Positions 4,934 through 34,707 of a DNA stretch of 64,000 bases are shown here, one piece after another. Within the stretch, counting starts at the first letter, position 1. Every line of letters starts with the position of its first letter. Origin of the DNA: a virus (Duplodnaviria; Caudoviricetes); the IMG/VR virus record IMGVR_UViG_3300013121_000027, positions 64,001 through 128,000 of that record. One strand, written 5' to 3'. The notes beneath the pieces were generated by a model that made no database searches, was not told where the DNA came from, and saw only the letters and a list, made by a program, of their open reading frames with translations. The position numbers and the translations under genes were made by a program.

Positions 4934-6547
4934 ATGTCGTCTTTAGTTGACTCTTTGTCAAATCGTACTCCTATTGTCTGGGTTAATACATTGGAACCCG
5001 AAAGGGCTATTGCAGCTATCCCTTCTTTGAAGTCTGATGCAAGACCTCTCTATGTTTATGATGAATTCTCAGGTCTAATGGTTTGGGATCAAGACAAGGA
5101 CACTTGGAAAGTTGTCTTGGTTGAAATTAAGGATCCCGATACAGGTGAAGTAGTCCAAAAGCCAGTCTTTGGTTCTCAACAAGCCTTTGGTTATATCCTT
5201 AACCAGGATCCAAGTATTTATATAGTTCGTAATGCTCATAAAGATATTGATAACCACTTAACTTTATTCTCTGTTTTGTATAATCGTTATCGTTCAACGT
5301 TCTTTTCTGATGACTTGGATAAGCTCCCTACTCAAGTTATTTGCTTTGCGGCAAATGAGCCAGCGCCACCCGAAATCTCTTCAATGACTACAACTGCTGC
5401 ATGGGGATATCCGACTCCCCTTGAGCTTCGCACTATTATAACTAATATTCGTCAGAACTATAAAGACGACGTTGCTTCTGATGAAGATCTTGATGAGCTT
5501 GTCAAGTCTTCAGTCGGTCTTACTGAGCACGATGCTATTGAAGTCTATCTTTCTTCTATTCGTTCTCATGGCACCATTGACAAAAAGACTCTTCGTTCTT
5601 TGCGTCTGGAGCGTCTCAAGGCTATGTCCAATCTTGAAGTGGATGAGCCAAAGGTTCAGCTTTCTGATATTGGTGGTCTTGACAATGCTAAGAAGCTTAT
5701 TCAGCGTGCGGCATGGATTTGGCAGAATCCTGAAGAGGCTGCTAAATACAAGCTTGTTCCTCTTCGTCGCATTCTTCTTCTTGGTCTTTCTGGCTGTGGT
5801 AAATCCTACCTTTGCGAGGGTGCAGCCAGCGCTCTTGGTCTTCAGCTCGCCAAAGGTGGCGTCTCCAAGGCTATGAATAAGTTCATTGGTCAATCAGAGG
5901 CAAATATTACTGCCATGTTTGATCAGATCAATGCAATGTCTCCAATTACTCTTTGGATTGATGAAATTGGTCGTGATCTTTCTGGTGGTGGCTCTTCTAA
6001 CTATACCGATGGTGGCACTACTTCTCGTGTTCATGGATTGTTCTTGACTAAGATGCAAGAGCTCAATAAGGATGTATTTGTTTTTGCGGCTGCCAATAAC
6101 ATTGAATCTTTGGCTCCTGAGATGCTTCGTGCCGACCGCTTTGACAAACTCTTCTTCGTTGGCTTCCCGTCCTATGAAGAACGTCGTGATATCTTTGCCC
6201 TTCATCTCCCCAGAGATGCACAGTTTGATCTTGATGAGTTGGCAAGTCATACTCCGTGTTTTACTGGTGCAGAAATAAAAGCTCTTATTGAGCGTACTAT
6301 TTTTGATATTTCTCCACAATATAACCGTACTATTACCACAGAGGATTTAGTTAAAACTATTCCTTATCAGAAAAACCGTATTTGGATTCGTCATCGTAAT
6401 CTTGCTGTCAATATGTACTCCAGTGCCTTCAACGAATATGAATGGGCTTCTACCTCTCAGTATGGTGAAGCTCAGTTTATTATGAAGGGCGTTGAACCAA
6501 AACAAGGCATCACTGTTAATGCGGGGATGAGTCTTAATCTTAAGTAA
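4934..6547 (+). CDS. AAA+ ATPase (Ycf46-like)
   Basis: DIGGLD, Walker A GLSGCGKS, pore loop KFIGQSE, Walker B LWIDE, SRH PEMLRADRFD. Confidence 0.9.
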   Translation: MSSLVDSLSNRTPIVWVNTLEPERAIAAIPSLKSDARPLYVYDEFSGLMVWDQDKDTWKVVLVEIKDPDTGEVVQKPVFGSQQAFGYILNQDPSIYIVRNAHKDIDNHLTLFSVLYNRYRSTFFSDDLDKLPTQVICFAANEPAPPEISSMTTTAAWGYPTPLELRTIITNIRQNYKDDVASDEDLDELVKSSVGLTEHDAIEVYLSSIRSHGTIDKKTLRSLRLERLKAMSNLEVDEPKVQLSDIGGLDNAKKLIQRAAWIWQNPEEAAKYKLVPLRRILLLGLSGCGKSYLCEGAASALGLQLAKGGVSKAMNKFIGQSEANITAMFDQINAMSPITLWIDEIGRDLSGGGSSNYTDGGTTSRVHGLFLTKMQELNKDVFVFAAANNIESLAPEMLRADRFDKLFFVGFPSYEERRDIFALHLPRDAQFDLDELASHTPCFTGAEIKALIERTIFDISPQYNRTITTEDLVKTIPYQKNRIWIRHRNLAVNMYSSAFNEYEWASTSQYGEAQFIMKGVEPKQGITVNAGMSLNLK

Positions 6548-18081: not shown

Positions 18082-18155
18082 GGTTTCATAGTTCAATGTA
18101 GAACGACATCCTCTAAAGATGTGCGTTGCGGGTTCAAGTCCCGCTGAAACCTCCA
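18082..18155 (+). tRNA. amber suppressor tRNA (anticodon CTA)
   Basis: GGTTTCA/TGAAACC acceptor, ACATC-CTCTAAA-GATGT, T-arm GCGGG-TTCAAGT-CCCGC, encoded CCA. Confidence 0.88.
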
Positions 18156-18355
18156 TGAATAACCATCCCCTAATAGGCAGATGTGTCGAGCTTGTTGAAA
18201 TGATAGACGATCCAGATCCAATTCCCTATGGTGCAAGAGGGACTGTGATGCGTGTTGTTCGATTTTTAGAAACAGAAGTTATAACTGTTAATTGGGAAAT
18301 AAAAAGATGTTTAAATCTTGTCTCACCACCCGATAAATATGTTATAATAGATTAG
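18155..18355 (+). CDS. DUF4314-like small protein
   Basis: G.RVEL..M.DDP.PIP.G..GTV..V.....I.V.W.....L.LV...D.Y pattern; ATG overlaps tRNA CCA. Confidence 0.7.
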   Translation: MNNHPLIGRCVELVEMIDDPDPIPYGARGTVMRVVRFLETEVITVNWEIKRCLNLVSPPDKYVIID

Positions 18356-18378
18356 TAAGAAAAGTAAAAAGGTTTATT

Positions 18379-18443
18379 GTATGAACCGAATTTGAAGCGT
18401 TATCTTCTGGTGGTAAAATGCTTCATTGTTAACTTGTTCATAC
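18379..18443 (+). ncRNA. Y RNA-like unit 1
   Basis: GTATGAAC-CGAA...CTT-GTTCATAC stem; upper stem TGAAGCG/TGCTTCA; TTATC. Confidence 0.8.
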
Positions 18444-18453
18444 TCAAGTTTAA

Positions 18454-18531
18454 AGCTTTGAACCGAATTGAAAACGATTATCTAATTGTAAATAGAACCC
18501 AAACTCGTTTTCTATCAACTTGTTCATTGCT
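18454..18531 (+). ncRNA. Y RNA-like unit 2
   Basis: TGAAC-CGAA...CTT-GTTCA; GAAAACGA/TCGTTTTC; TTATC. Confidence 0.8.
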
Positions 18532-18538
18532 CAGTTTA

Positions 18539-18663
18539 GTTAGAGCCGAACTTCAATTGATTATCATAGGTTCGAATCCCATAACCCCTAACGGGGGTTG
18601 CGCACCGGCGTTTGGTGCACCCAGTATAGTTCTGGGTTTCAATTGGAAAATACTTGTTCTAAC
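18539..18663 (+). ncRNA. Y RNA-like unit 3 (T-loop plus three hairpins)
   Basis: GTTAGAGC-CGAA...CTT-GTTCTAAC; TTCAATTGA/TCAATTGGA; TTATC; GGTTCGAATCC. Confidence 0.82.
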
Positions 18664-18672
18664 ATTATTTAA

Positions 18673-18787
18673 ATCTTAAGCCGAATTTAAACGATTATCG
18701 CATATGGTTGACGAAGATGACACCAATAAGTCCATCTGAGCGGTTCGAATCCGCATTAAAATTCGTTTGAAATCCCTTGCTTAAGAT
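18673..18787 (+). ncRNA. Y RNA-like unit 4 (T-arm containing)
   Basis: ATCTTAAGC-CGAA...CTT-GCTTAAGAT; TTTAAACGA/TCGTTTGAA; TTATC; GCGGTTCGAATCCGC. Confidence 0.82.
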
Positions 18788-18794
18788 ATTTTTA

Positions 18795-18929
18795 TGTCAA
18801 AGCCGAATAAAATTCTTTATCGCCTTTCAAGCGGGTGGTCACAGGTTCAAATCCTGTCAAGGGCTAATTCCCTTTGTAGCTCAGTCCGGTAGAGCACCTA
18901 AACGAGGATTTTAAAAACTTGTTTTGACG
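18795..18929 (+). ncRNA. Y RNA-like unit 5 (YrlA-type, circularly permuted tRNA mimic)
   Basis: TGTCAAAGC-CGAA...CTT-GTTTTGACG; T-arm ACAGGTTCAAATCCTGT, capped acceptor stem, then D-arm TAGCTCAGTCCGGTAGAGCA. Confidence 0.88.
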
Positions 18930-18936
18930 CCCTCTA

Positions 18937-19098
18937 ATTAAGAACCGAATTTAAACGATTATCATTTACCATACAACGGCAGAGATAGTATCGAAGCCAA
19001 CAAGAAGTCTCCTTGTAAAAAGAGAAAGATAAGCTACAAATAAGCGGAATCGCTGTAGTAATACAGTTATAATTCGTTTGAAGCAACTTGTTCTTAAT
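18937..19098 (+). ncRNA. Y RNA-like unit 6 (long A-rich cargo)
   Basis: ATTAAGAAC-CGAA...CTT-GTTCTTAAT; TTTAAACGA/TCGTTTGAA; TTATC. Confidence 0.8.
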
Positions 19099-19106
19099 AT
19101 CTCTTA

Positions 19107-19195
19107 ATCTTAAACCGAAATAATATGGTTCTCAGCAGCGTCTAACAGACAGTGGTTCGACTCCACAACCCGTATTAGCTCAACTTGTTTAAGAT
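19107..19195 (+). ncRNA. Y RNA-like unit 7 (T-arm containing)
   Basis: ATCTTAAAC-CGAA...CTT-GTTTAAGAT; TAATATGG/CCGTATTA; GTGGTTCGACTCCAC. Confidence 0.8.
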
Positions 19196-19243
19196 GCATT
19201 TTATATTTATCTTGTTCCCATCACATAGAAAGGAGAACCGAAA

Positions 19244-20827
19244 ATGACTACCGATCCTCTGATGCAGTTCAATATGCAGACCACTCCTCAGACTCAGCAA
19301 GCTGATAAGGCTCAGGTCCAGAATAATGCTGGTGGGTTTTCTTTTGAGGTTTCTACCGATCAGCGTCTGCTTCGTTTCTTAATTCTTGGTACTTGGGGCG
19401 GAACTTATTACGTCTCTGAGCAGAAGCTTACTAAGGATTCTTTCGAGAATGTTAAGAAGCTGGTTGACATTGACGGAAAGAAGGTTGTTGATATGGTACT
19501 TGATGTATCGCTCAACAACCGTGCTTATAAGCAGAACCCAACTCTGTTCACTCTCGCTGTAGCTTCTGCCGCTGATGACGTTGAGACTCGTCGCTATGCT
19601 CTTGCCGCTGTAGAAAAGGTATGCCGTACTGGCACCATGTTCTTCCAGTTCCTTGCTTATACTGAGCAGTTCCGTGGCTGGGGTTCCGCTCTTCAGAAGG
19701 CTGCTGCCAATTGGTACACTAATAAGACTCCCGATCAGCTTGCTAATCAGCTTGTCAAGTACCGTCAGCGTGATGGTTGGACTCACCGTGACGTTTTGCG
19801 TCTTGCAAAGCCTAAGATCGCCGCTGACAACCCTATCACGCCAGCTATTCGTTGGACCGTAGGTAAGGATACCGATCCCATTCTGCTTCCAGAGCTGATC
19901 TATGGCTTCCAGGAAGCTCAGAAGGTCACCAATGCTAAGGAGTGGGTGAAGCTTATCGAGCAGTATAAGCTTCCTTGGGAAGCTCTGCCAACCCAGGCTC
20001 TCAATGAGCCTTTGGTTTGGGAAGCTCTTGCTCCCCATATGGGATTGACTGCCTTGATTCGTAATCTTGGTAAGATGAGCGCCTGTGGTGCTCTTGTAAA
20101 CCATAGTGATCTTTCTAAGATTGTCAATGGTCGCCTCAGCGACAAGGAAGCATACCTCAAGGCTCGCGTACATCCAATGCAAGTTCTTCTTGCTCAGAGT
20201 GTTTACTCTGCTGGACGCGGCTTTAAGGGTAATAATACCTGGAATCCAGTTGCAACTGTTGTAGATAATCTTAATGAGGGATTCTATGCTGCATTTGGCA
20301 ACCTTCCAGAAACTGGTAAGCGTCGTATGCTTGCCATTGACGTGTCTGGGTCAATGGGCATGGGCACAATTGCTAATACCTTCTTGACGCCTCGTGATGC
20401 CTCTGCTGCACTTGCTATGGTAGCCCTTCACCAGGATCCGGAAAGCTATACCTTTGGCTTCTCTGGTGGCTTCATTCCTCTTGGCTTGTCCAAGGGTATG
20501 CGCTTGGATTCTGTTATTAAGAAGGTCAATGGTCTTCCTTTTGACAGAACCGATTGTGCTCTGCCTATGGTACACGCAAAGAAGGATCAATTGAAGGTGG
20601 ATTCATTTGAAATCTATACTGACAACGAGACCTGGGCTGGTAAGATTCATCCTCATCAGGCATTGAAGGACTACCGTGCTTGGTCTGGCATCAATTCCAA
20701 GTTTGTTGTAAATGGTATGGTCGCAAACAACTTTACTGTTGCCGATCCTAAGGATCCAGGATCGATCGACGTAGTTGGTTTCGATGCCTCTACCCCAAGC
20801 ATGGTATCAGATTTCATTTGCCAATAA
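19244..20827 (+). CDS. rsr: Ro60/TROVE-domain RNA-binding protein
   Basis: QVQNNAGGFSF, LLRFLILGTWGGTYY, KYRQRDGWTHRDVLRLAKP, ALIRNLGKM, vWA DVSGSM, YTDNETW, VVGFDA; SD AAGGAG. Confidence 0.96.
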   Translation: MTTDPLMQFNMQTTPQTQQADKAQVQNNAGGFSFEVSTDQRLLRFLILGTWGGTYYVSEQKLTKDSFENVKKLVDIDGKKVVDMVLDVSLNNRAYKQNPTLFTLAVASAADDVETRRYALAAVEKVCRTGTMFFQFLAYTEQFRGWGSALQKAAANWYTNKTPDQLANQLVKYRQRDGWTHRDVLRLAKPKIAADNPITPAIRWTVGKDTDPILLPELIYGFQEAQKVTNAKEWVKLIEQYKLPWEALPTQALNEPLVWEALAPHMGLTALIRNLGKMSACGALVNHSDLSKIVNGRLSDKEAYLKARVHPMQVLLAQSVYSAGRGFKGNNTWNPVATVVDNLNEGFYAAFGNLPETGKRRMLAIDVSGSMGMGTIANTFLTPRDASAALAMVALHQDPESYTFGFSGGFIPLGLSKGMRLDSVIKKVNGLPFDRTDCALPMVHAKKDQLKVDSFEIYTDNETWAGKIHPHQALKDYRAWSGINSKFVVNGMVANNFTVADPKDPGSIDVVGFDASTPSMVSDFICQ

Positions 20828-20972: not shown

Positions 20973-21728
20973 ATGACAAGAATCTTACTCGCAGGCGATA
21001 TACACGCCTCTCATTATCAAATAAAACTTTTAATTGAGAAAGCGCAACAATCTCATTGTACTCATATCATAGCCCTTGGGGATTTTGGATTTTTCCCTGG
21101 CAATAGATACTTTAATGATTTCTTATCTAAAGTGAATTATATGGTTTGTGATGCGGGAATTCATTTCTGGTGGCTTGATGGGAACCATGAAAATCACGAC
21201 GCCTTAGATGTGATGACACAGGGTAGAAACGATCAGATGTTCATCACCTCTTATAATGGAACCAGTTATAGTAATATTTATTATCTCCCAAGAGGATATA
21301 GATTTGAACTTGACGATGTAAAATTTATGTCATATGGTGGAGCTTATTCCGTTGATAAAGATGGACGTACGCAAGGCTTTGATTGGTTCCCGCAGGAAGA
21401 ACCTGATATCGCACATATCTCTAATCTTTCAGACGATCCAGTTGATATTTTACTCACTCATGACATACCTTATGACGATGCTTTTGTTTATCATAATGAA
21501 AGCATTAGTCAACTTGAACACGGAATAAAAAGTCAAAAAATTAGAAAAAGACTTTTATATTTGGCGCAAAAAATAACACCACGATATTGCTTCGGAGGTC
21601 ATCATCATCGTAGAGTTACCTATAATATACTCCATCGTAAAGGCGTTGCAGAGTGCCACATTCTTAGTTGTGGTGGGAATGGTAATGATTCTTGGTTTAT
21701 TCTTGACACGGAAAAAATAAATAAGTAA
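20973..21728 (+). CDS. calcineurin-like metallophosphoesterase
   Basis: GDIH, LGDFG, DGNHEN, LLTHD, GHHH. Confidence 0.92.
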   Translation: MTRILLAGDIHASHYQIKLLIEKAQQSHCTHIIALGDFGFFPGNRYFNDFLSKVNYMVCDAGIHFWWLDGNHENHDALDVMTQGRNDQMFITSYNGTSYSNIYYLPRGYRFELDDVKFMSYGGAYSVDKDGRTQGFDWFPQEEPDIAHISNLSDDPVDILLTHDIPYDDAFVYHNESISQLEHGIKSQKIRKRLLYLAQKITPRYCFGGHHHRRVTYNILHRKGVAECHILSCGGNGNDSWFILDTEKINK

Positions 21729-21756: not shown

Positions 21757-22791
21757 ATGTCTGTTGCGACAGAAGAACTTACAATTGAAAAAATAAGTAA
21801 TTTGACTAAGGAAAAGATTAAGCCATTGAGAGACATTGGTTTGATGGCTCTTCCTTATGCTCATGGACCTCTTGGTAAGAATATCTTTACGATGGCATTG
21901 GATCAAGATTCTGAAGTCTTGAGATTCTGGACTGGTACTGCGGATCTTAAGGTGGTTGATACGACTACTGAACCGAAGAAGCAAGCCGTTATTAGGGTTG
22001 TTGAATCTGGACATACTTTAACTTTTAAATGTCTTGTTCGTCGTGGAACAATCAATTATGCACAAATCGATACCACACAACAAAACATTATAGATCGTGC
22101 ACAAAAAATTACTCCTGGTCTTTTACAGCGACTCATCAATACAACTCTTCCTCCTAAAACTATTTTTAAAGTAGCGAATGCAAAAACAGTTTTGACTAAC
22201 CGAGGCAACTTCCATGATGTTGAGGTTGGTGAAAGATTTGATTGCTATATCACCATTGAAGCTACTGTTCCTGCTTTTGACGATTCTTTTTTGATTGGTT
22301 ATGATGAGCAGAAATGCTTTATTTCTCAACTTCCAGTTCATGTCAATAAGGTTAAGGATGCTTATAAAGTTCTTCGTCCTGAAGGAGTAAGCCCTAAGGC
22401 TTTACGCCAAGGTGAATGGTTCTTTAATCCAATAAAAGATCCTGCTCTTATCGCTAAGTTGAATAAGATTGAAGAGAAACAAGCTCCTGCAGCAGATAGA
22501 AGAGGCTTAACTGGGCTCGATACTATGTTTGCTCGCGATTACTATGTTAAACTTCGCAACAAACTTGGAACACAGCACGTAACCCCCTCCTCTATACTTC
22601 GTTCTTTAGCAAGAGGATCTTCGCATCATGCCAACTACATTGATCATGCTGGTAAGAGATATGTAAAGGGTTCTGTTGTGGATTCTCGCAAAGCACGTCA
22701 TGCTCCATTAGAAATAAAGACCTGGCATGAAGTAATACGTAATCTTGAGAAGGTAATGCCAGTGACTGCTCGCCCCCGTAGATGGGATTAA
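21757..22791 (+). CDS. conserved phage hypothetical protein
   Basis: 344 aa ORF with RQGEWFF and His motifs. Confidence 0.6.
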   Translation: MSVATEELTIEKISNLTKEKIKPLRDIGLMALPYAHGPLGKNIFTMALDQDSEVLRFWTGTADLKVVDTTTEPKKQAVIRVVESGHTLTFKCLVRRGTINYAQIDTTQQNIIDRAQKITPGLLQRLINTTLPPKTIFKVANAKTVLTNRGNFHDVEVGERFDCYITIEATVPAFDDSFLIGYDEQKCFISQLPVHVNKVKDAYKVLRPEGVSPKALRQGEWFFNPIKDPALIAKLNKIEEKQAPAADRRGLTGLDTMFARDYYVKLRNKLGTQHVTPSSILRSLARGSSHHANYIDHAGKRYVKGSVVDSRKARHAPLEIKTWHEVIRNLEKVMPVTARPRRWD

Positions 22792-29222: not shown

Positions 29223-29296
29223 GTGGGTATGGTAATGGTTAACCGGCACGGCTCCAACCCGTCGCATAGGAAGAGGTTCGATTCCTTTTACCCGCG
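29223..29296 (+). tRNA. tRNA-Trp(CCA), atypical D-arm
   Basis: GTGGGTA/TACCCGC, ACGG-CTCCAAC-CCGT, T-loop TTCGATT. Confidence 0.72.
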
Positions 29297-33065: not shown

Positions 33066-34707
33066 TGTATATTATATTAGTTTCATCCGAAGGTAGTGGT
33101 GCCGGAAAGGCTTACGGTCCATACGATACCAAAAAAGAAGCTAACGAATACCTCGATCAGATGTTTCCTAAAGACAATCCAGAGTTTTGGGATGATGGTG
33201 TTTGGATTTGTTGTGAATGGTATGATGTTCTTAAAATGGATTCTAAAAATCTTTTACATAAACATATAGAAGAATATTATGAATGACAATCCATATATAC
33301 TTAATGACAATGATTTAAGTATTGTTAAATATTTAATAGATAATTCTACGCTTGAAAATCTTGTGGGAATTCGCGAGATGCATCAAAAATCTATAGATAA
33401 TCTTTCCCAAGAACTTGAAGAATTACATAGATTAACAAATGCAAAGTATAGGGTTATTGCTATGCGTGAACGAGTTTTATTAGAACTTAATGAAAGGTTT
33501 CCGCCAGATTGATTTATGATTTTCTTGATGCAATAGCTACAGTTATAGCTGAATCTGATTCGTTAACCTTTCCAAAATATTTCTCACAGTTGGTGGGTTT
33601 TACAGAAAGAACCAGAATATGAAGATTTACACTTTAACCTTGGATAATAAAGATGTTTTTAAAATAGCAGCTGAAGATGCGGATGATGCGATTTCTGTTG
33701 CTATAGAATTTGACATAATAGACAATCCACTTGACTATGCTACGGTAGATTTAAGTGGTTGGACTGATTTTTTTAATCCAGATGTGAAAGGTTTAGTTTG
33801 TAAGCTATTAGAGACTCAGCAATTTTGTGTTACCGACGTCTTTGGGGATGATCACCTTTTTGGCGAAGCAATCCATGTAGATCTTGATCATGGCAAAATT
33901 ACAGCCAATGGATTTGAACCTCGTGTAAAAGAAAAATTTGAATTTTAAAGAAAGAGTAAAAATGACCCCCGAAGAACTAAAGAAAATTGCAGTAGATTCC
34001 TATGTAGAGATGAAGTCTGAATCTTCTAAGCTGGAAGCCACTTCTGCTTTTGTGCCACCAATATTATTTTGGCATACAGACCAAGAAGAGAATAACACAA
34101 CCGTTATTGCTATGCCAGATTTAAATACTTTAGATCTTGGAGCTATCGTTATTGGGTTAAAAGAGAAGTTAGGCGAACCCAAATCCATTATGTTTCTAAG
34201 CGATGCTCATGCTAAAATTATTCCGCAAGAAGATACGACTGAAGAGTTTGGAAACTACGAGCGTGGGCAATATGCTAAGGACTTTGATGCTGGTAAAGCT
34301 GACATATCTGAATGTCTCGTCTTCATGTTCTTAACCTTGGATGAAATCTCTGGTGCAACTGCTCTCTATCATTATGATGAGAACACGAAACAAATTGTTT
34401 TCAAAGACGACATAAACGACTTAGAGTTCCTTCCCGGTATGGATGCCGTTGTTCCTTCAGCCCTAACAAAGGCTTTTATGCCTGGAAAGATATAATTACA
34501 GTGCGCAAGATAAAGCAAAAGATAGTTAAGATTTGGAATAAGATAAAGAGTTGGTTTACGAAACCCGCAAAACAAATCTTCGTAAATCCACAAGTAGCAC
34601 AAGAAGATCCTATTCTTGAAGATATAATAACAAGACTAAATAATCAGTTTAATGACATGCCAGCAATGTTTCAGAATCTCTTTACTGATTTTAATGGAGC
34701 AGTATAA

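What the first reader, a model, noticed from the sequence alone, without database searches (positions are those of the whole stretch)
18379..20827. Tandem array of seven modular Y RNAs directly upstream of a phage Ro60
Seen: the 820 bp before the Ro60 gene is seven back-to-back units (18379-18443, 18454-18531, 18539-18663, 18673-18787, 18795-18929, 18937-19098, 19107-19195) separated by 7-10 nt. Each reads: terminal stem, [A/G]CCGAA, upper stem, TTATC (TTCTC in unit 7), variable domain, upper stem', CTTG[T/C], terminal stem'. Stem sequences differ between units but keep their pairing. Established: a bulged C in CCGA opposite CUUG is the Ro60-binding helix of Y RNAs, and UUAUC follows the upper stem in human Y1 and nematode stem-bulge RNAs. 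Characterised bacterial Ro60 loci have one or two Y RNAs (Yrn1/Yrn2, YrlA/YrlB). Inference: one Ro60 scaffold loads seven interchangeable RNAs with a constant handle and different cargo (T-arms in units 3, 4, 5, 7; ASL-like hairpins; a long A-rich domain). This would be an RNA-programmed tethering or decoy system that I do not know to have been described.
Basis: partly seen in the sequence, partly recalled or inferred. Interest (0 to 1): 0.95.

Follow-up and report, generated by a model that had tools for sequence, protein, structure and literature searches.

The report
Seven Y RNA genes before phage Ro60
A 231-kb phage carries seven small RNA genes in a row just before its Ro60 gene, all sharing the RNA helix that Ro60 is known to grip; the same model finds similar rows, up to eight or nine long, beside Ro60 in many phages and bacteria, although the papers I could read describe only one or two such RNAs per locus.

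Summary
Window 18379-19195 (+) holds seven back-to-back units of 65-162 nt, 7-10 nt apart, ending 48 nt before a canonical Ro60 gene (19244-20827).

Each unit reads: lower stem, bulged C, CGA, 9-bp upper stem, UUAUC, variable cargo, upper stem', CUUG, lower stem'. The stems covary between units.

- **Specificity.** A covariance model built only from these units finds nothing else in the 231-kb phage.
- **Linkage.** In 80 distant viral and 80 bacterial/archaeal Ro60 loci, all 201 and 237 matches lie on Ro60's strand, nearly all beside the gene. In five whole bacterial genomes every match lay inside the Ro60 locus.
- **Array size.** Rows of 5-9 units are common, so seven is large but not unique.
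- **Layout.** Handle and spacing match human Y RNA1, including 9 nt between CCGAA and UUAUC.

Most likely these are seven Ro60-binding Y RNAs cut from one precursor, giving one Ro60 several effector modules. That is the established Y-RNA tether/gate model, multiplexed, not a new kind of system.

RNA expression, Ro60 binding and partner proteins are untested. I found no paper describing arrays this large. This scan has already noted Ro60-linked RNA arrays on other DNA many times.

The parts
18379..18443 (+). Y RNA unit 1: minimal hairpin type, 65 nt, about 19-nt loop including UUAUC
   Evidence: R1 47.4 bits (E 4.7e-9) and R2 43.9 bits. The fold closes a 7-bp lower stem plus CGA:UUG.
18454..18531 (+). 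Y RNA unit 2: short type, 78 nt. The lower stem is 4 bp, then 2 mismatches, then 3 bp.
   Evidence: R1 61 bits and R2 48.5 bits. It is missed by the strict descriptor because of the two mismatches. Pairing is shown.
18539..18663 (+). Y RNA unit 3: 125 nt, with a T-loop motif on a weak stem followed by three hairpins
   Evidence: R1 63 bits. T-loop GGTTCGAATCC at 18569. Cargo fold.
18673..18787 (+). Y RNA unit 4: 115 nt, a 7-bp hairpin plus a T-arm. It shares its lower stem with unit 7 and its upper stem with unit 6.
   Evidence: R1 95.2 bits. T-loop at 18742. Segment identities.
18795..18929 (+). Y RNA unit 5: YrlA type, 135 nt. It has an extra hairpin, a T-arm, a closed acceptor-like stem and a D-arm.
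   Evidence: Rfam YrlA RF02553 at 46.4 bits, E 6.9e-9, below the gathering score of 69. R2 62.2 bits.
18937..19098 (+). Y RNA unit 6: 162 nt with a long A-rich cargo that is not tRNA-like
   Evidence: R1 78.7 bits. It has no T-loop. Cargo fold. Long non-tRNA units occur in other loci.
19107..19195 (+). Y RNA unit 7: 89 nt, a small hairpin plus a T-arm, with UUCUC in place of UUAUC
   Evidence: R1 65.9 bits. T-loop at 19154. Fold.
19196..19243 (+). Leader of the Ro60 gene with a Shine-Dalgarno sequence (AGGAG). It contains CTTGTTC and GAACCGAA half-motifs in reversed order (about 19210-19242), which may be a remnant of a unit or a Ro60 site over the ribosome-binding site.
   Evidence: Sequence. 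The reversed pairing was found but is not conserved at the start of other Ro60 genes beyond what unit junctions produce.
19244..20827 (+). Ro60 (Rsr) ortholog, 527 aa, with a TROVE ring and a vWA domain carrying the MIDAS motif DVSGS
   Evidence: Pfam PF05731 and PF25045. PDB 2NVO E 5e-117 and 1YVP E 8e-101. K172 and R176 align with Xenopus K170 and R174 and are invariant among relatives.

Best explanation
The 817 bases upstream of the phage Ro60 gene encode seven Y RNAs.

**Shown by sequence and comparison.** Each RNA pairs its 5' and 3' ends into the conserved Ro60-binding helix: a 7-8-bp lower stem, a bulged C, and CGA paired with UUG. A 9-bp upper stem follows, then a single-stranded UUAUC. 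This handle is constant, while the enclosed cargo differs:
- two minimal hairpins (units 1 and 2);
- one YrlA-type tRNA mimic (unit 5);
- three units with a T-loop motif plus other hairpins (units 3, 4 and 7);
- one long A-rich domain (unit 6).

**Inferred.** The row is transcribed rightward as one precursor, probably together with Ro60. Host RNases cut it in the 7-10-nt A/U-rich spacers. Each RNA is then bound and stabilised by phage Ro60 on the ring's outer surface. Bound Y RNA gates the ring's central cavity and uses its cargo to bring Ro60 to different partners, such as host PNPase or other exoribonucleases and proteins that recognise tRNA shape. This would retarget RNA surveillance or decay during infection, or blunt RNA-directed host defences. 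It is the known Y-RNA tether/gate mechanism, multiplexed.
For: - **Anatomy and covariation within the array:**
- **Specificity:** R1 and R2 hit only the seven units in the window and in the whole phage genome.
- **Linkage to Ro60:**
  - R1, built from this window alone, gave 60 hits in 80 viral Ro60 loci whose Ro60 is only 42-49% identical. All lie on Ro60's strand, nearly all within about 700 nt upstream or just downstream.
  - R2 gave 201 of 201 hits (viral) and 237 of 237 hits (bacterial/archaeal) on Ro60's strand.
  - In five whole bacterial genomes (23 Mb), all 18 hits fall inside the Ro60 locus.
- **Covariation across 149 distinct units:** 91.3% paired, against 61% in shuffles and 36-44% when slid; 18 of 20 pairs show compensatory change, and the CGA:UUG core is nearly fixed.
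- **Known family:** unit 5 matches Rfam YrlA at E 6.9e-9.
- **Canonical protein:** the Ro60 keeps the residues aligned to Xenopus K170 and R174.
- **Precursor model:** there is no promoter or terminator signal inside the array above chance.
- **Precedents:** M. smegmatis YrlA and YrlB lie upstream of rsr and are processed from one precursor (PMC4201824). Phage phiLo Ro60 binds two upstream Y-like RNAs and forms complexes with host PNPase in vitro (PMC12135203).
- **Selection on each unit:** stems differ between units while CCGAA, CUUG and UUAUC stay fixed.
Against: - There are no expression data, so discrete RNAs, processing sites and Ro60 binding are all inferred.
- None of the seven units reaches any Rfam gathering score, and the metazoan Y_RNA model does not match at E up to 10.
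- Cargo folds are not more stable than shuffled sequence (z -0.4 to -1.4), so the cargo structures and their partners are guesses.
- The covariation counts on A3 and A4 come from alignments fitted to the model, which favours the structure. A2 is not fitted, but its structure was drawn from these same sequences.
- The closest relatives could not be examined, so conservation of this particular array and of its cargo types is unknown.
Confidence: 0.78

Rival explanations
1. The row is mainly a cis-acting leader of the Ro60 mRNA. Repeated Ro60-binding sites would titrate or autoregulate Ro60 synthesis, including a reversed half-site pair over the ribosome-binding site, and would not yield seven free trans-acting RNAs.
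For: The array sits 48 nt from the start codon on the same strand, with no terminator between them. CTTGTTC and GAACCGAA flank the Shine-Dalgarno sequence and can pair.
Against: In other loci the same units lie downstream of Ro60 (L042, L054, L201) or are interleaved with tRNA genes more than 800 nt away (Gordonia and Streptomyces phages). A leader role cannot explain those positions. The reversed site at the ribosome-binding site is not conserved in other loci. Diverse conserved cargo, such as T-arms in 58 of 150 units, is unnecessary for a sponge.
Confidence: 0.08
2. The units are tRNA-like RNAs that act on their own, for example as decoys for tRNA-cleaving defence nucleases or for tRNA-modifying enzymes. 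The closing helix would serve only for processing and stability, and Ro60 would be a neighbour in a tRNA/RNA-repair gene cluster, not their partner.
For: Four units carry T-loop motifs. The region is rich in tRNA genes. In actinophages the units are interleaved with tRNAs.
Against: The handle is the sequence-specific Ro60 site, with both strands and a bulged C, and has the same layout as human Y RNA1. The family occurs only at Ro60 loci in whole genomes. Three of the seven units have no tRNA-like part. A decoy role while bound to Ro60 is not excluded and falls under the main explanation.
Confidence: 0.07
3. Only some units are functional and the rest are decaying duplicates of a one- or two-RNA system. 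Unit 5 (YrlA type) and a short unit (YrlB type) would be the most likely working members.
For: Units 4, 6 and 7 share stem segments, which shows duplication and recombination. Unit 2 has two mismatches in its lower stem, unit 3 has a weak T-stem and unit 7 has UUCUC.
Against: All seven keep CCGAA and CUUG exactly while their stems have diverged to 22-67% identity with compensatory changes. That pattern is not expected for pseudogenes. Arrays of 5-9 units recur in many lineages.
Confidence: 0.06
4. The pattern is a chance repeat, or protein-coding sequence (the TTG-start ORF at 18377-18679).
For: A 100-aa ORF overlaps units 1-4.
Against: Six strict descriptor hits fall in 0.8 kb, against about 5 per 463 kb in shuffled genomes. 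Compensatory covariation is strong. The family is linked to Ro60 across hundreds of loci.
Confidence: 0.01

Closest known systems
Bacterial and phage Y RNAs bound by Rsr/Ro60: YrlA and YrlB (S. Typhimurium, M. smegmatis, mycobacteriophages), Yrn1 and Yrn2 (D. radiodurans). Sources: Chen et al. 2014 (PMC4201824); Rfam RF02553.
   Same: They are encoded beside Ro60 on the same strand. The 5' and 3' ends form a stem that carries the GNCGAA-type Ro60 site. They have a modular effector domain. One member per locus mimics tRNA with T and D arms, and another is a plain hairpin. In M. smegmatis they lie upstream of rsr and are processed from one precursor.
   Different: This locus has seven units, against the one to two characterised per locus (four small RNAs lie upstream of D. 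radiodurans rsr, two of them called Y RNAs). Both strands of the Ro60 helix are kept (CCGA/CUUG), whereas the paper says only the 5' strand is recognisable in Salmonella and M. smegmatis. UUAUC is conserved and is not mentioned there. Cargo types go beyond YrlA and YrlB (T-arm only; long A-rich). Unit 5 scores below Rfam's YrlA threshold.
Thermus phage phiLo Ro60 with Yrl1 and Yrl2 (PMC12135203)
   Same: A phage Ro60 has Y-like RNAs directly upstream, recognised by a CGAA motif and a stem-bulge-stem shape. Binding to Ro60 and ternary complexes with host PNPase were shown in vitro.
   Different: phiLo has two RNAs, not seven. Its Ro60 is very distant from this one (E 2e-6, against 5e-117 to D. 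radiodurans Rsr).
Vertebrate Y RNAs (for example human Y RNA1) and nematode stem-bulge RNAs (Kowalski and Krude 2015, PMC4726728)
   Same: The handle layout is identical: a 7-8-bp lower stem, a bulged C, CGA:UUG, an internal loop, an upper stem of about 9 bp, then UUAUC. The 9 nt between CCGAA and UUAUC match the Y RNA1 primer sequence. Several paralogs per genome carry different loops.
   Different: The eukaryotic RNAs are separate Pol III genes with a 3' oligo-U tail bound by La. In eukaryotes UUAUC and the upper stem are tied to DNA replication initiation. Rfam's Y_RNA model does not match these units. The phage units form a back-to-back array beside Ro60, and many carry tRNA-like parts.
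Ro60-linked RNA arrays noted earlier in this scan on other DNA
   Same: They are rows of 4-11 small RNAs with one constant handle and tRNA-like cargo beside a Ro60 or Ro60-like gene in phages and bacteria.
   Different: Several of those involve very divergent Ro60-like (DUF2828) proteins and a different handle motif. This locus has a canonical Ro60 and the canonical CCGA/CUUG handle. Those notes are unchecked leads.

Membership tests
Y RNA (functional class: Ro60-bound ncRNA) | Encoded close to a Ro60 ortholog and on the same strand (criterion of Chen et al. 2014: within 4 kb, same strand) | tested here: met
   The units lie 48-865 nt upstream of Ro60 on the + strand. The family is confined to Ro60 loci in whole genomes.
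Y RNA (functional class: Ro60-bound ncRNA) | A stem formed by the 5' and 3' ends that contains the conserved Ro60-binding helix (5' GNCGAA / GGUCCGA with a bulged C; 3' CUUG) | tested here: met
   CCGAA and CTTG are present in 7 of 7 units. The lower helix is 97.3% paired with compensatory changes. The layout is the same as in the Y RNA1 sequence.
Y RNA (functional class: Ro60-bound ncRNA) | Size of about 80-130 nt with a large internal loop or effector module | tested here: met
   The units are 65-162 nt. Four fall in the 80-135-nt range, two are shorter and one is longer. Across 150 related units the lengths are bimodal, at 60-80 and 120-145 nt.
Y RNA (functional class: Ro60-bound ncRNA) | Physically bound by Ro60, with accumulation that depends on Ro60 | not testable with these tools
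   This needs immunoprecipitation, gel shift or a deletion. The only indirect support is that the Ro60 residues aligned to Xenopus K170 and R174 are conserved. The role of those residues in Y RNA binding is recalled from the literature and was not checked here.
YrlA subfamily (Rfam RF02553) | Match to the covariance model at or above the gathering score of 69 bits | tested here: not met
   Unit 5 scores 46.4 bits (E 6.9e-9) and aligns over the full model length. The other six units do not match.
YrlA subfamily (Rfam RF02553) | A tRNA-like domain in the order T-arm, closed acceptor-like stem, D-arm | tested here: met
   This holds for unit 5 only; the alignment to the YrlA consensus shows all three elements. 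Units 3, 4 and 7 have a T-loop motif but no D-arm.
Metazoan Y_RNA (Rfam RF00019) / nematode sbRNA | Match to the Rfam covariance model | tested here: not met
   No match at E up to 10 in a 1.3-kb search. The resemblance is in handle layout and the UUAUC motif only.
Ro60 / Rsr protein (TROVE) | TROVE domain plus a C-terminal vWA domain with a MIDAS motif, and full-length similarity to solved Ro60 proteins | tested here: met
   PF05731 at 4.6e-40 and PF25045 at 2.9e-55. 2NVO, 9NEN and 1YVP match at E 5e-117 to 8e-101 over residues 8-524. The DVSGS motif is invariant.

The most novel reading that the evidence does not exclude
Ro60 in phages and bacteria normally works with a multiplexed set of Y RNAs, up to eight or nine per locus. 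A constant handle docks on Ro60 and interchangeable, mostly tRNA-derived cargo directs the ring to different partners, or acts as decoys for tRNA-directed enzymes and defence nucleases. The handle, including UUAUC held 9-10 nt from CCGAA, would be the same ancient element as in human Y RNAs. UUAUC would then be part of a conserved Ro60 (or Ro60-partner) platform, not a eukaryote-specific DNA-replication signal, and prokaryotic and metazoan Y RNAs would be homologous.
Probability: 0.3. Interest if true: 0.8.

Novelty: new variant of a known kind. Interest (0 to 1): 0.6.

Why it matters
Ro60 and Y RNAs are conserved from bacteria to humans and are a major lupus and Sjögren autoantigen. How Y RNAs direct Ro60 is still poorly understood, and the bacterial work rests on one or two RNAs per species.

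A compact phage locus with seven handle-sharing RNAs of different cargo is a natural experiment in RNA-programmed targeting. Each unit can be expressed with the same protein and its partners pulled down.

The comparative result may matter more than this one locus. The arrays are common and strictly linked to Ro60, and they share the human Y RNA1 layout down to the UUAUC spacing. This suggests that the known bacterial Y RNA repertoire is a large undercount. It also gives a testable reason for the conservation of UUAUC. Phage Ro60 has been linked experimentally to counter-defence in one preprint (Bas63 gp130 against Ppl, PMC11482910), so the arrays may also bear on phage-host conflict.

Tried and rejected
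  - A single-protein scan of viral contigs found nothing.
  - An exact 19-nt handle pattern found nothing in viral contigs.
  - The metagenome scan gave no relative above 50% identity.
- **Eighth site rejected.** In other loci the apparent excess is made of junctions between neighbouring units, so I do not count it as conserved.
- **Extra unit rejected.** A 65-nt hairpin with CCGAA/CTTG elsewhere in the genome (C1:207390-207454) is not matched by R2.
- **No internal signals.** Promoter and terminator scans inside the array are at chance level.
- **Cargo structure unproven.** Cargo folds are not significant against shuffles, so I make no claim about anticodon-stem-loop mimicry. Both readings remain open.
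- **Downstream ORF unresolved.** Pfam and PDB searches gave nothing for 21757-22791.
- **Papers not held.** The reviews PMC10870794 and PMC6047535 are not in the library, and the supplementary tables of Chen et al. 2014 are not held. I therefore cannot rule out that a review mentions larger arrays.
Full report
**What is in the window.** Bases 18379-19195 on the + strand contain seven consecutive units of 65, 78, 125, 115, 135, 162 and 89 nt. They are separated by spacers of 7-10 nt, mostly A/U-rich. The last unit ends 48 nt before the ATG of a 527-aa ORF (19244-20827).

That ORF is a canonical Ro60:
- Pfam TROVE plus vWA_Ro60.
- E 5e-117 to D. radiodurans Rsr, 1e-101 to human-type RO60 and 8e-101 to Xenopus Ro60, all over the full length.
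- The MIDAS motif DVSGS is invariant among relatives.
- K172 and R176 align with Xenopus K170 and R174. From memory, those are the residues whose mutation abolishes Y RNA binding; I did not check that here.

The window is part of a 231,459-bp virus record with direct terminal repeats and 38% G+C. It lies in a tRNA-rich region.

**Anatomy of a unit.** Every unit reads: lower stem (7-8 bp; 4+3 bp with two mismatches in unit 2), a bulged C, CGA, A, a 9-nt upper-stem strand, UUAUC (UUCUC in unit 7), variable cargo, the upper-stem partner, a 4-5-nt loop ending in C, UUG, and the lower-stem partner.
- CCGAA and CUUG are identical in all seven units, while stem sequences are only 22-67% identical between most units.
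- On a plain MAFFT alignment with a hand-drawn structure, 88.4% of cells pair (97.3% in the lower helix). Shuffles give 68.6% and slid partners 34-55%. Fourteen of 20 pairs show changes on both sides.
- Units 4 and 7 share a lower stem, and units 4 and 6 share an upper stem. This points to duplication with module exchange.

**Is it more than chance?**
- A descriptor that asks only for a stem of at least 7 bp around CCGA...UUG finds six of the seven units in 0.8 kb. Shuffled genomes give about five such hits per 463 kb.
- A covariance model built from the seven units (R1) scores them at E 1e-20 to 5e-9, and the next hit in the window is at E 0.36.
- A second model (R2), built from 41 units of 18 loci, finds exactly these seven in the whole 231-kb genome at E up to 1.

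**Linkage to Ro60 elsewhere.** The nearest Ro60 relatives I could fetch are only 42-50% identical.
- R1, which knows only this window, still found 60 matches in 80 viral Ro60 loci. All are on Ro60's strand and nearly all within about 700 nt upstream or just downstream.
- R2 found 201 matches (E up to 0.1) in the viral loci and 237 matches (E up to 0.01) in 80 bacterial/archaeal loci. Every one is on Ro60's strand.
- In five whole bacterial genomes (23 Mb in total), all 18 matches lie inside the Ro60 locus. The first-look stage scored only 150 of 231-785 candidates per genome.
- Over 149 distinct units, 91.3% of cells pair, against 61% in shuffles and 36-44% when slid. Eighteen of 20 pairs have compensatory changes, and the C-G, G-U/C and A/G-U core is almost fixed. 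These alignments are fitted to the model, which favours the structure. The strand and position bias is independent of that.

**Array size.** My tally gives 74 of 80 bacterial/archaeal loci with at least one unit, 14 with five or more, and four with eight (L194, L198, L201, L242).
- Among viral loci, 68 of 80 have at least one unit. Several have five or six, and L075 has eight (nine at E up to 0.1).
- Isolated phages have them too:
  - Bxz1 has three in the unannotated gap before its Ro gene.
  - Gordonia phage Mareelih has one upstream and four interleaved with tRNA genes.
  - Streptomyces phage SparkleGoddess has six among its tRNA genes.
- Spacings of 7-20 nt are typical. Lengths are bimodal, with short hairpins of 60-80 nt and tRNA-like units of 120-145 nt. 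T-loops occur in 58 of 150 units.
- Seven is therefore at the high end but is not unique. The flanks were limited to 3-4 kb, so some arrays may be longer.

**The UUAUC motif.** Exact UUAUC follows the upper stem in 95 of 150 units, and UU[AC][UC]C in 144 of 150.
- The motif lies 9 nt after CCGRN in 82 of the 117 units where it could be measured, and 10 nt after in 24.
- A test that does not use the motif to find units: among descriptor hits, TTATC follows on Ro60's strand in 28, 36 and 45 cases in the three locus sets, and on the opposite strand in 0, 0 and 1.
- The published Y RNA1 primers read GGCTGGTCCGAAGGTAGTGAGTTATC and ...CTCACTACTGCACTTGACTAGTCT (PMC3928194). That is the same layout on both strands, with the same 9-nt spacing.
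- UUAUC is described as conserved in nematode sbRNAs and vertebrate Y RNAs and as needed for sbRNA activity in DNA replication assays (PMC4726728). The same review calls bacterial Y RNAs not homologous to the vertebrate clades.
- The bacterial Y RNA paper (PMC4201824) does not contain the motif.

**Cargo.**
- Unit 5 is a YrlA-type tRNA mimic. It aligns full-length to Rfam RF02553 with a T-arm, a closed acceptor-like stem and a D-arm, at 46.4 bits against a gathering score of 69.
- Unit 5 also has an extra hairpin (CGC-CUUUCAA-GCG) between UUAUC and the T-arm. It sits where many YrlA RNAs carry a long variable arm (10.1101/312249). I leave this open.
- Units 4 and 7 have a hairpin plus a T-arm. 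Unit 3 has a T-loop motif on a weak stem plus three hairpins. Units 1 and 2 are minimal hairpins. Unit 6 has a 105-nt A-rich domain.
- None of these cargo folds is significant against shuffles.

**How it most likely works.**
- Shown: the sequence family, its covarying structure, and its exclusive linkage to Ro60.
- Inferred from precedent: transcription as one precursor. There is no internal promoter or terminator signal above chance, and M. smegmatis YrlA and YrlB are processed from one precursor upstream of rsr.
- Also inferred from precedent:
  - cleavage in the spacers;
  - binding of each RNA to the outer surface of Ro60;
  - gating of the cavity;
  - cargo-dependent tethering to partners such as PNPase, shown for D. 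radiodurans and Salmonella and in vitro for phage phiLo.
- A role in counter-defence is possible. A Ro60-like protein of phage Bas63 counters the Ppl system in a preprint.

**Comparison with what is known, and novelty.** Y RNAs beside Ro60, including in phages, are known, and so is their modular tether/gate logic. I found no paper describing arrays larger than about two to four RNAs, or UUAUC in prokaryotic Y RNAs. Two key reviews and the supplementary tables of Chen et al. 2014 were not available.

This scan has already noted Ro60-linked RNA arrays on other DNA many times. I treat those notes as leads. My own searches show independently that such arrays are widespread. I therefore class the locus as a new variant of a known kind.

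**Limits.** Conservation of this specific seven-unit array is therefore untested. Expression, processing, binding and partners all need experiments.

Noticed in passing
window 18082-18155 (+): A tRNA with anticodon CTA (amber suppressor type) lies 224 nt upstream of the array. ARAGORN labels it 'Pyl', and the Rfam tRNA model gives 62.5 bits. A small DUF4314 ORF (18119-18355) sits between it and unit 1.
   Followed up: no
window 20973-21728 and 21757-22791 (+): Directly downstream of Ro60 lies a metallo-phosphoesterase (phrog_1649, E 7e-30; weak Pfam Metallophos_2). It is followed by a 344-aa ORF with no Pfam, PHROG or PDB match. Together they could be an RNA-end-healing context.
   Followed up: partly
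L251 (Gordonia phage Mareelih) 4895-5530: Four Y-type units are interleaved one-by-one with annotated tRNA genes. The annotated 'tRNA-Leu(gag)' at 5230-5318 overlaps tRNA-Gln and coincides with a 132-nt Y unit (5247-5378). It is probably a YrlA-type RNA mis-called as a tRNA.
   Followed up: partly
L253 (Streptomyces phage SparkleGoddess) 238-845 and 1558-1781; L250 (Bxz1) 2096-2442: Six Y-type units in SparkleGoddess and three in Bxz1 lie in stretches with no annotated feature, beside tRNA genes or before the Ro gene. None is annotated in the records.
   Followed up: partly
L195 (contig binned as a Bathyarchaeota archaeon MAG) 924-1369: Five back-to-back Y-type units lie upstream of a Ro60 gene on a contig assigned to an archaeon. 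This could reflect binning error or a virus.
   Followed up: no
window 18964-18980; L074 3568-3585; L035, L030 and L029 units (alignment A5): Several long units that are not tRNA-like share a CAUAC-like stretch shortly after UUAUC/UUAC. This hints at a conserved cargo class to which unit 6 may belong. The evidence is weak, from one MAFFT alignment.
   Followed up: partly
window 29275-29285 (+) and 33910-33920 (-): T-loop motifs (GGTTCRANTCC) occur outside any tRNA called by ARAGORN or by Rfam at gathering score. They may mark further tRNA-like genes.
   Followed up: no
G000:C1:207390-207454 (+), outside the window: A 65-nt hairpin has a 7-bp stem, CCGAA and CTTG, like a minimal unit, but it is not matched by model R2 at E up to 1. 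It is probably a chance match.
   Followed up: partly
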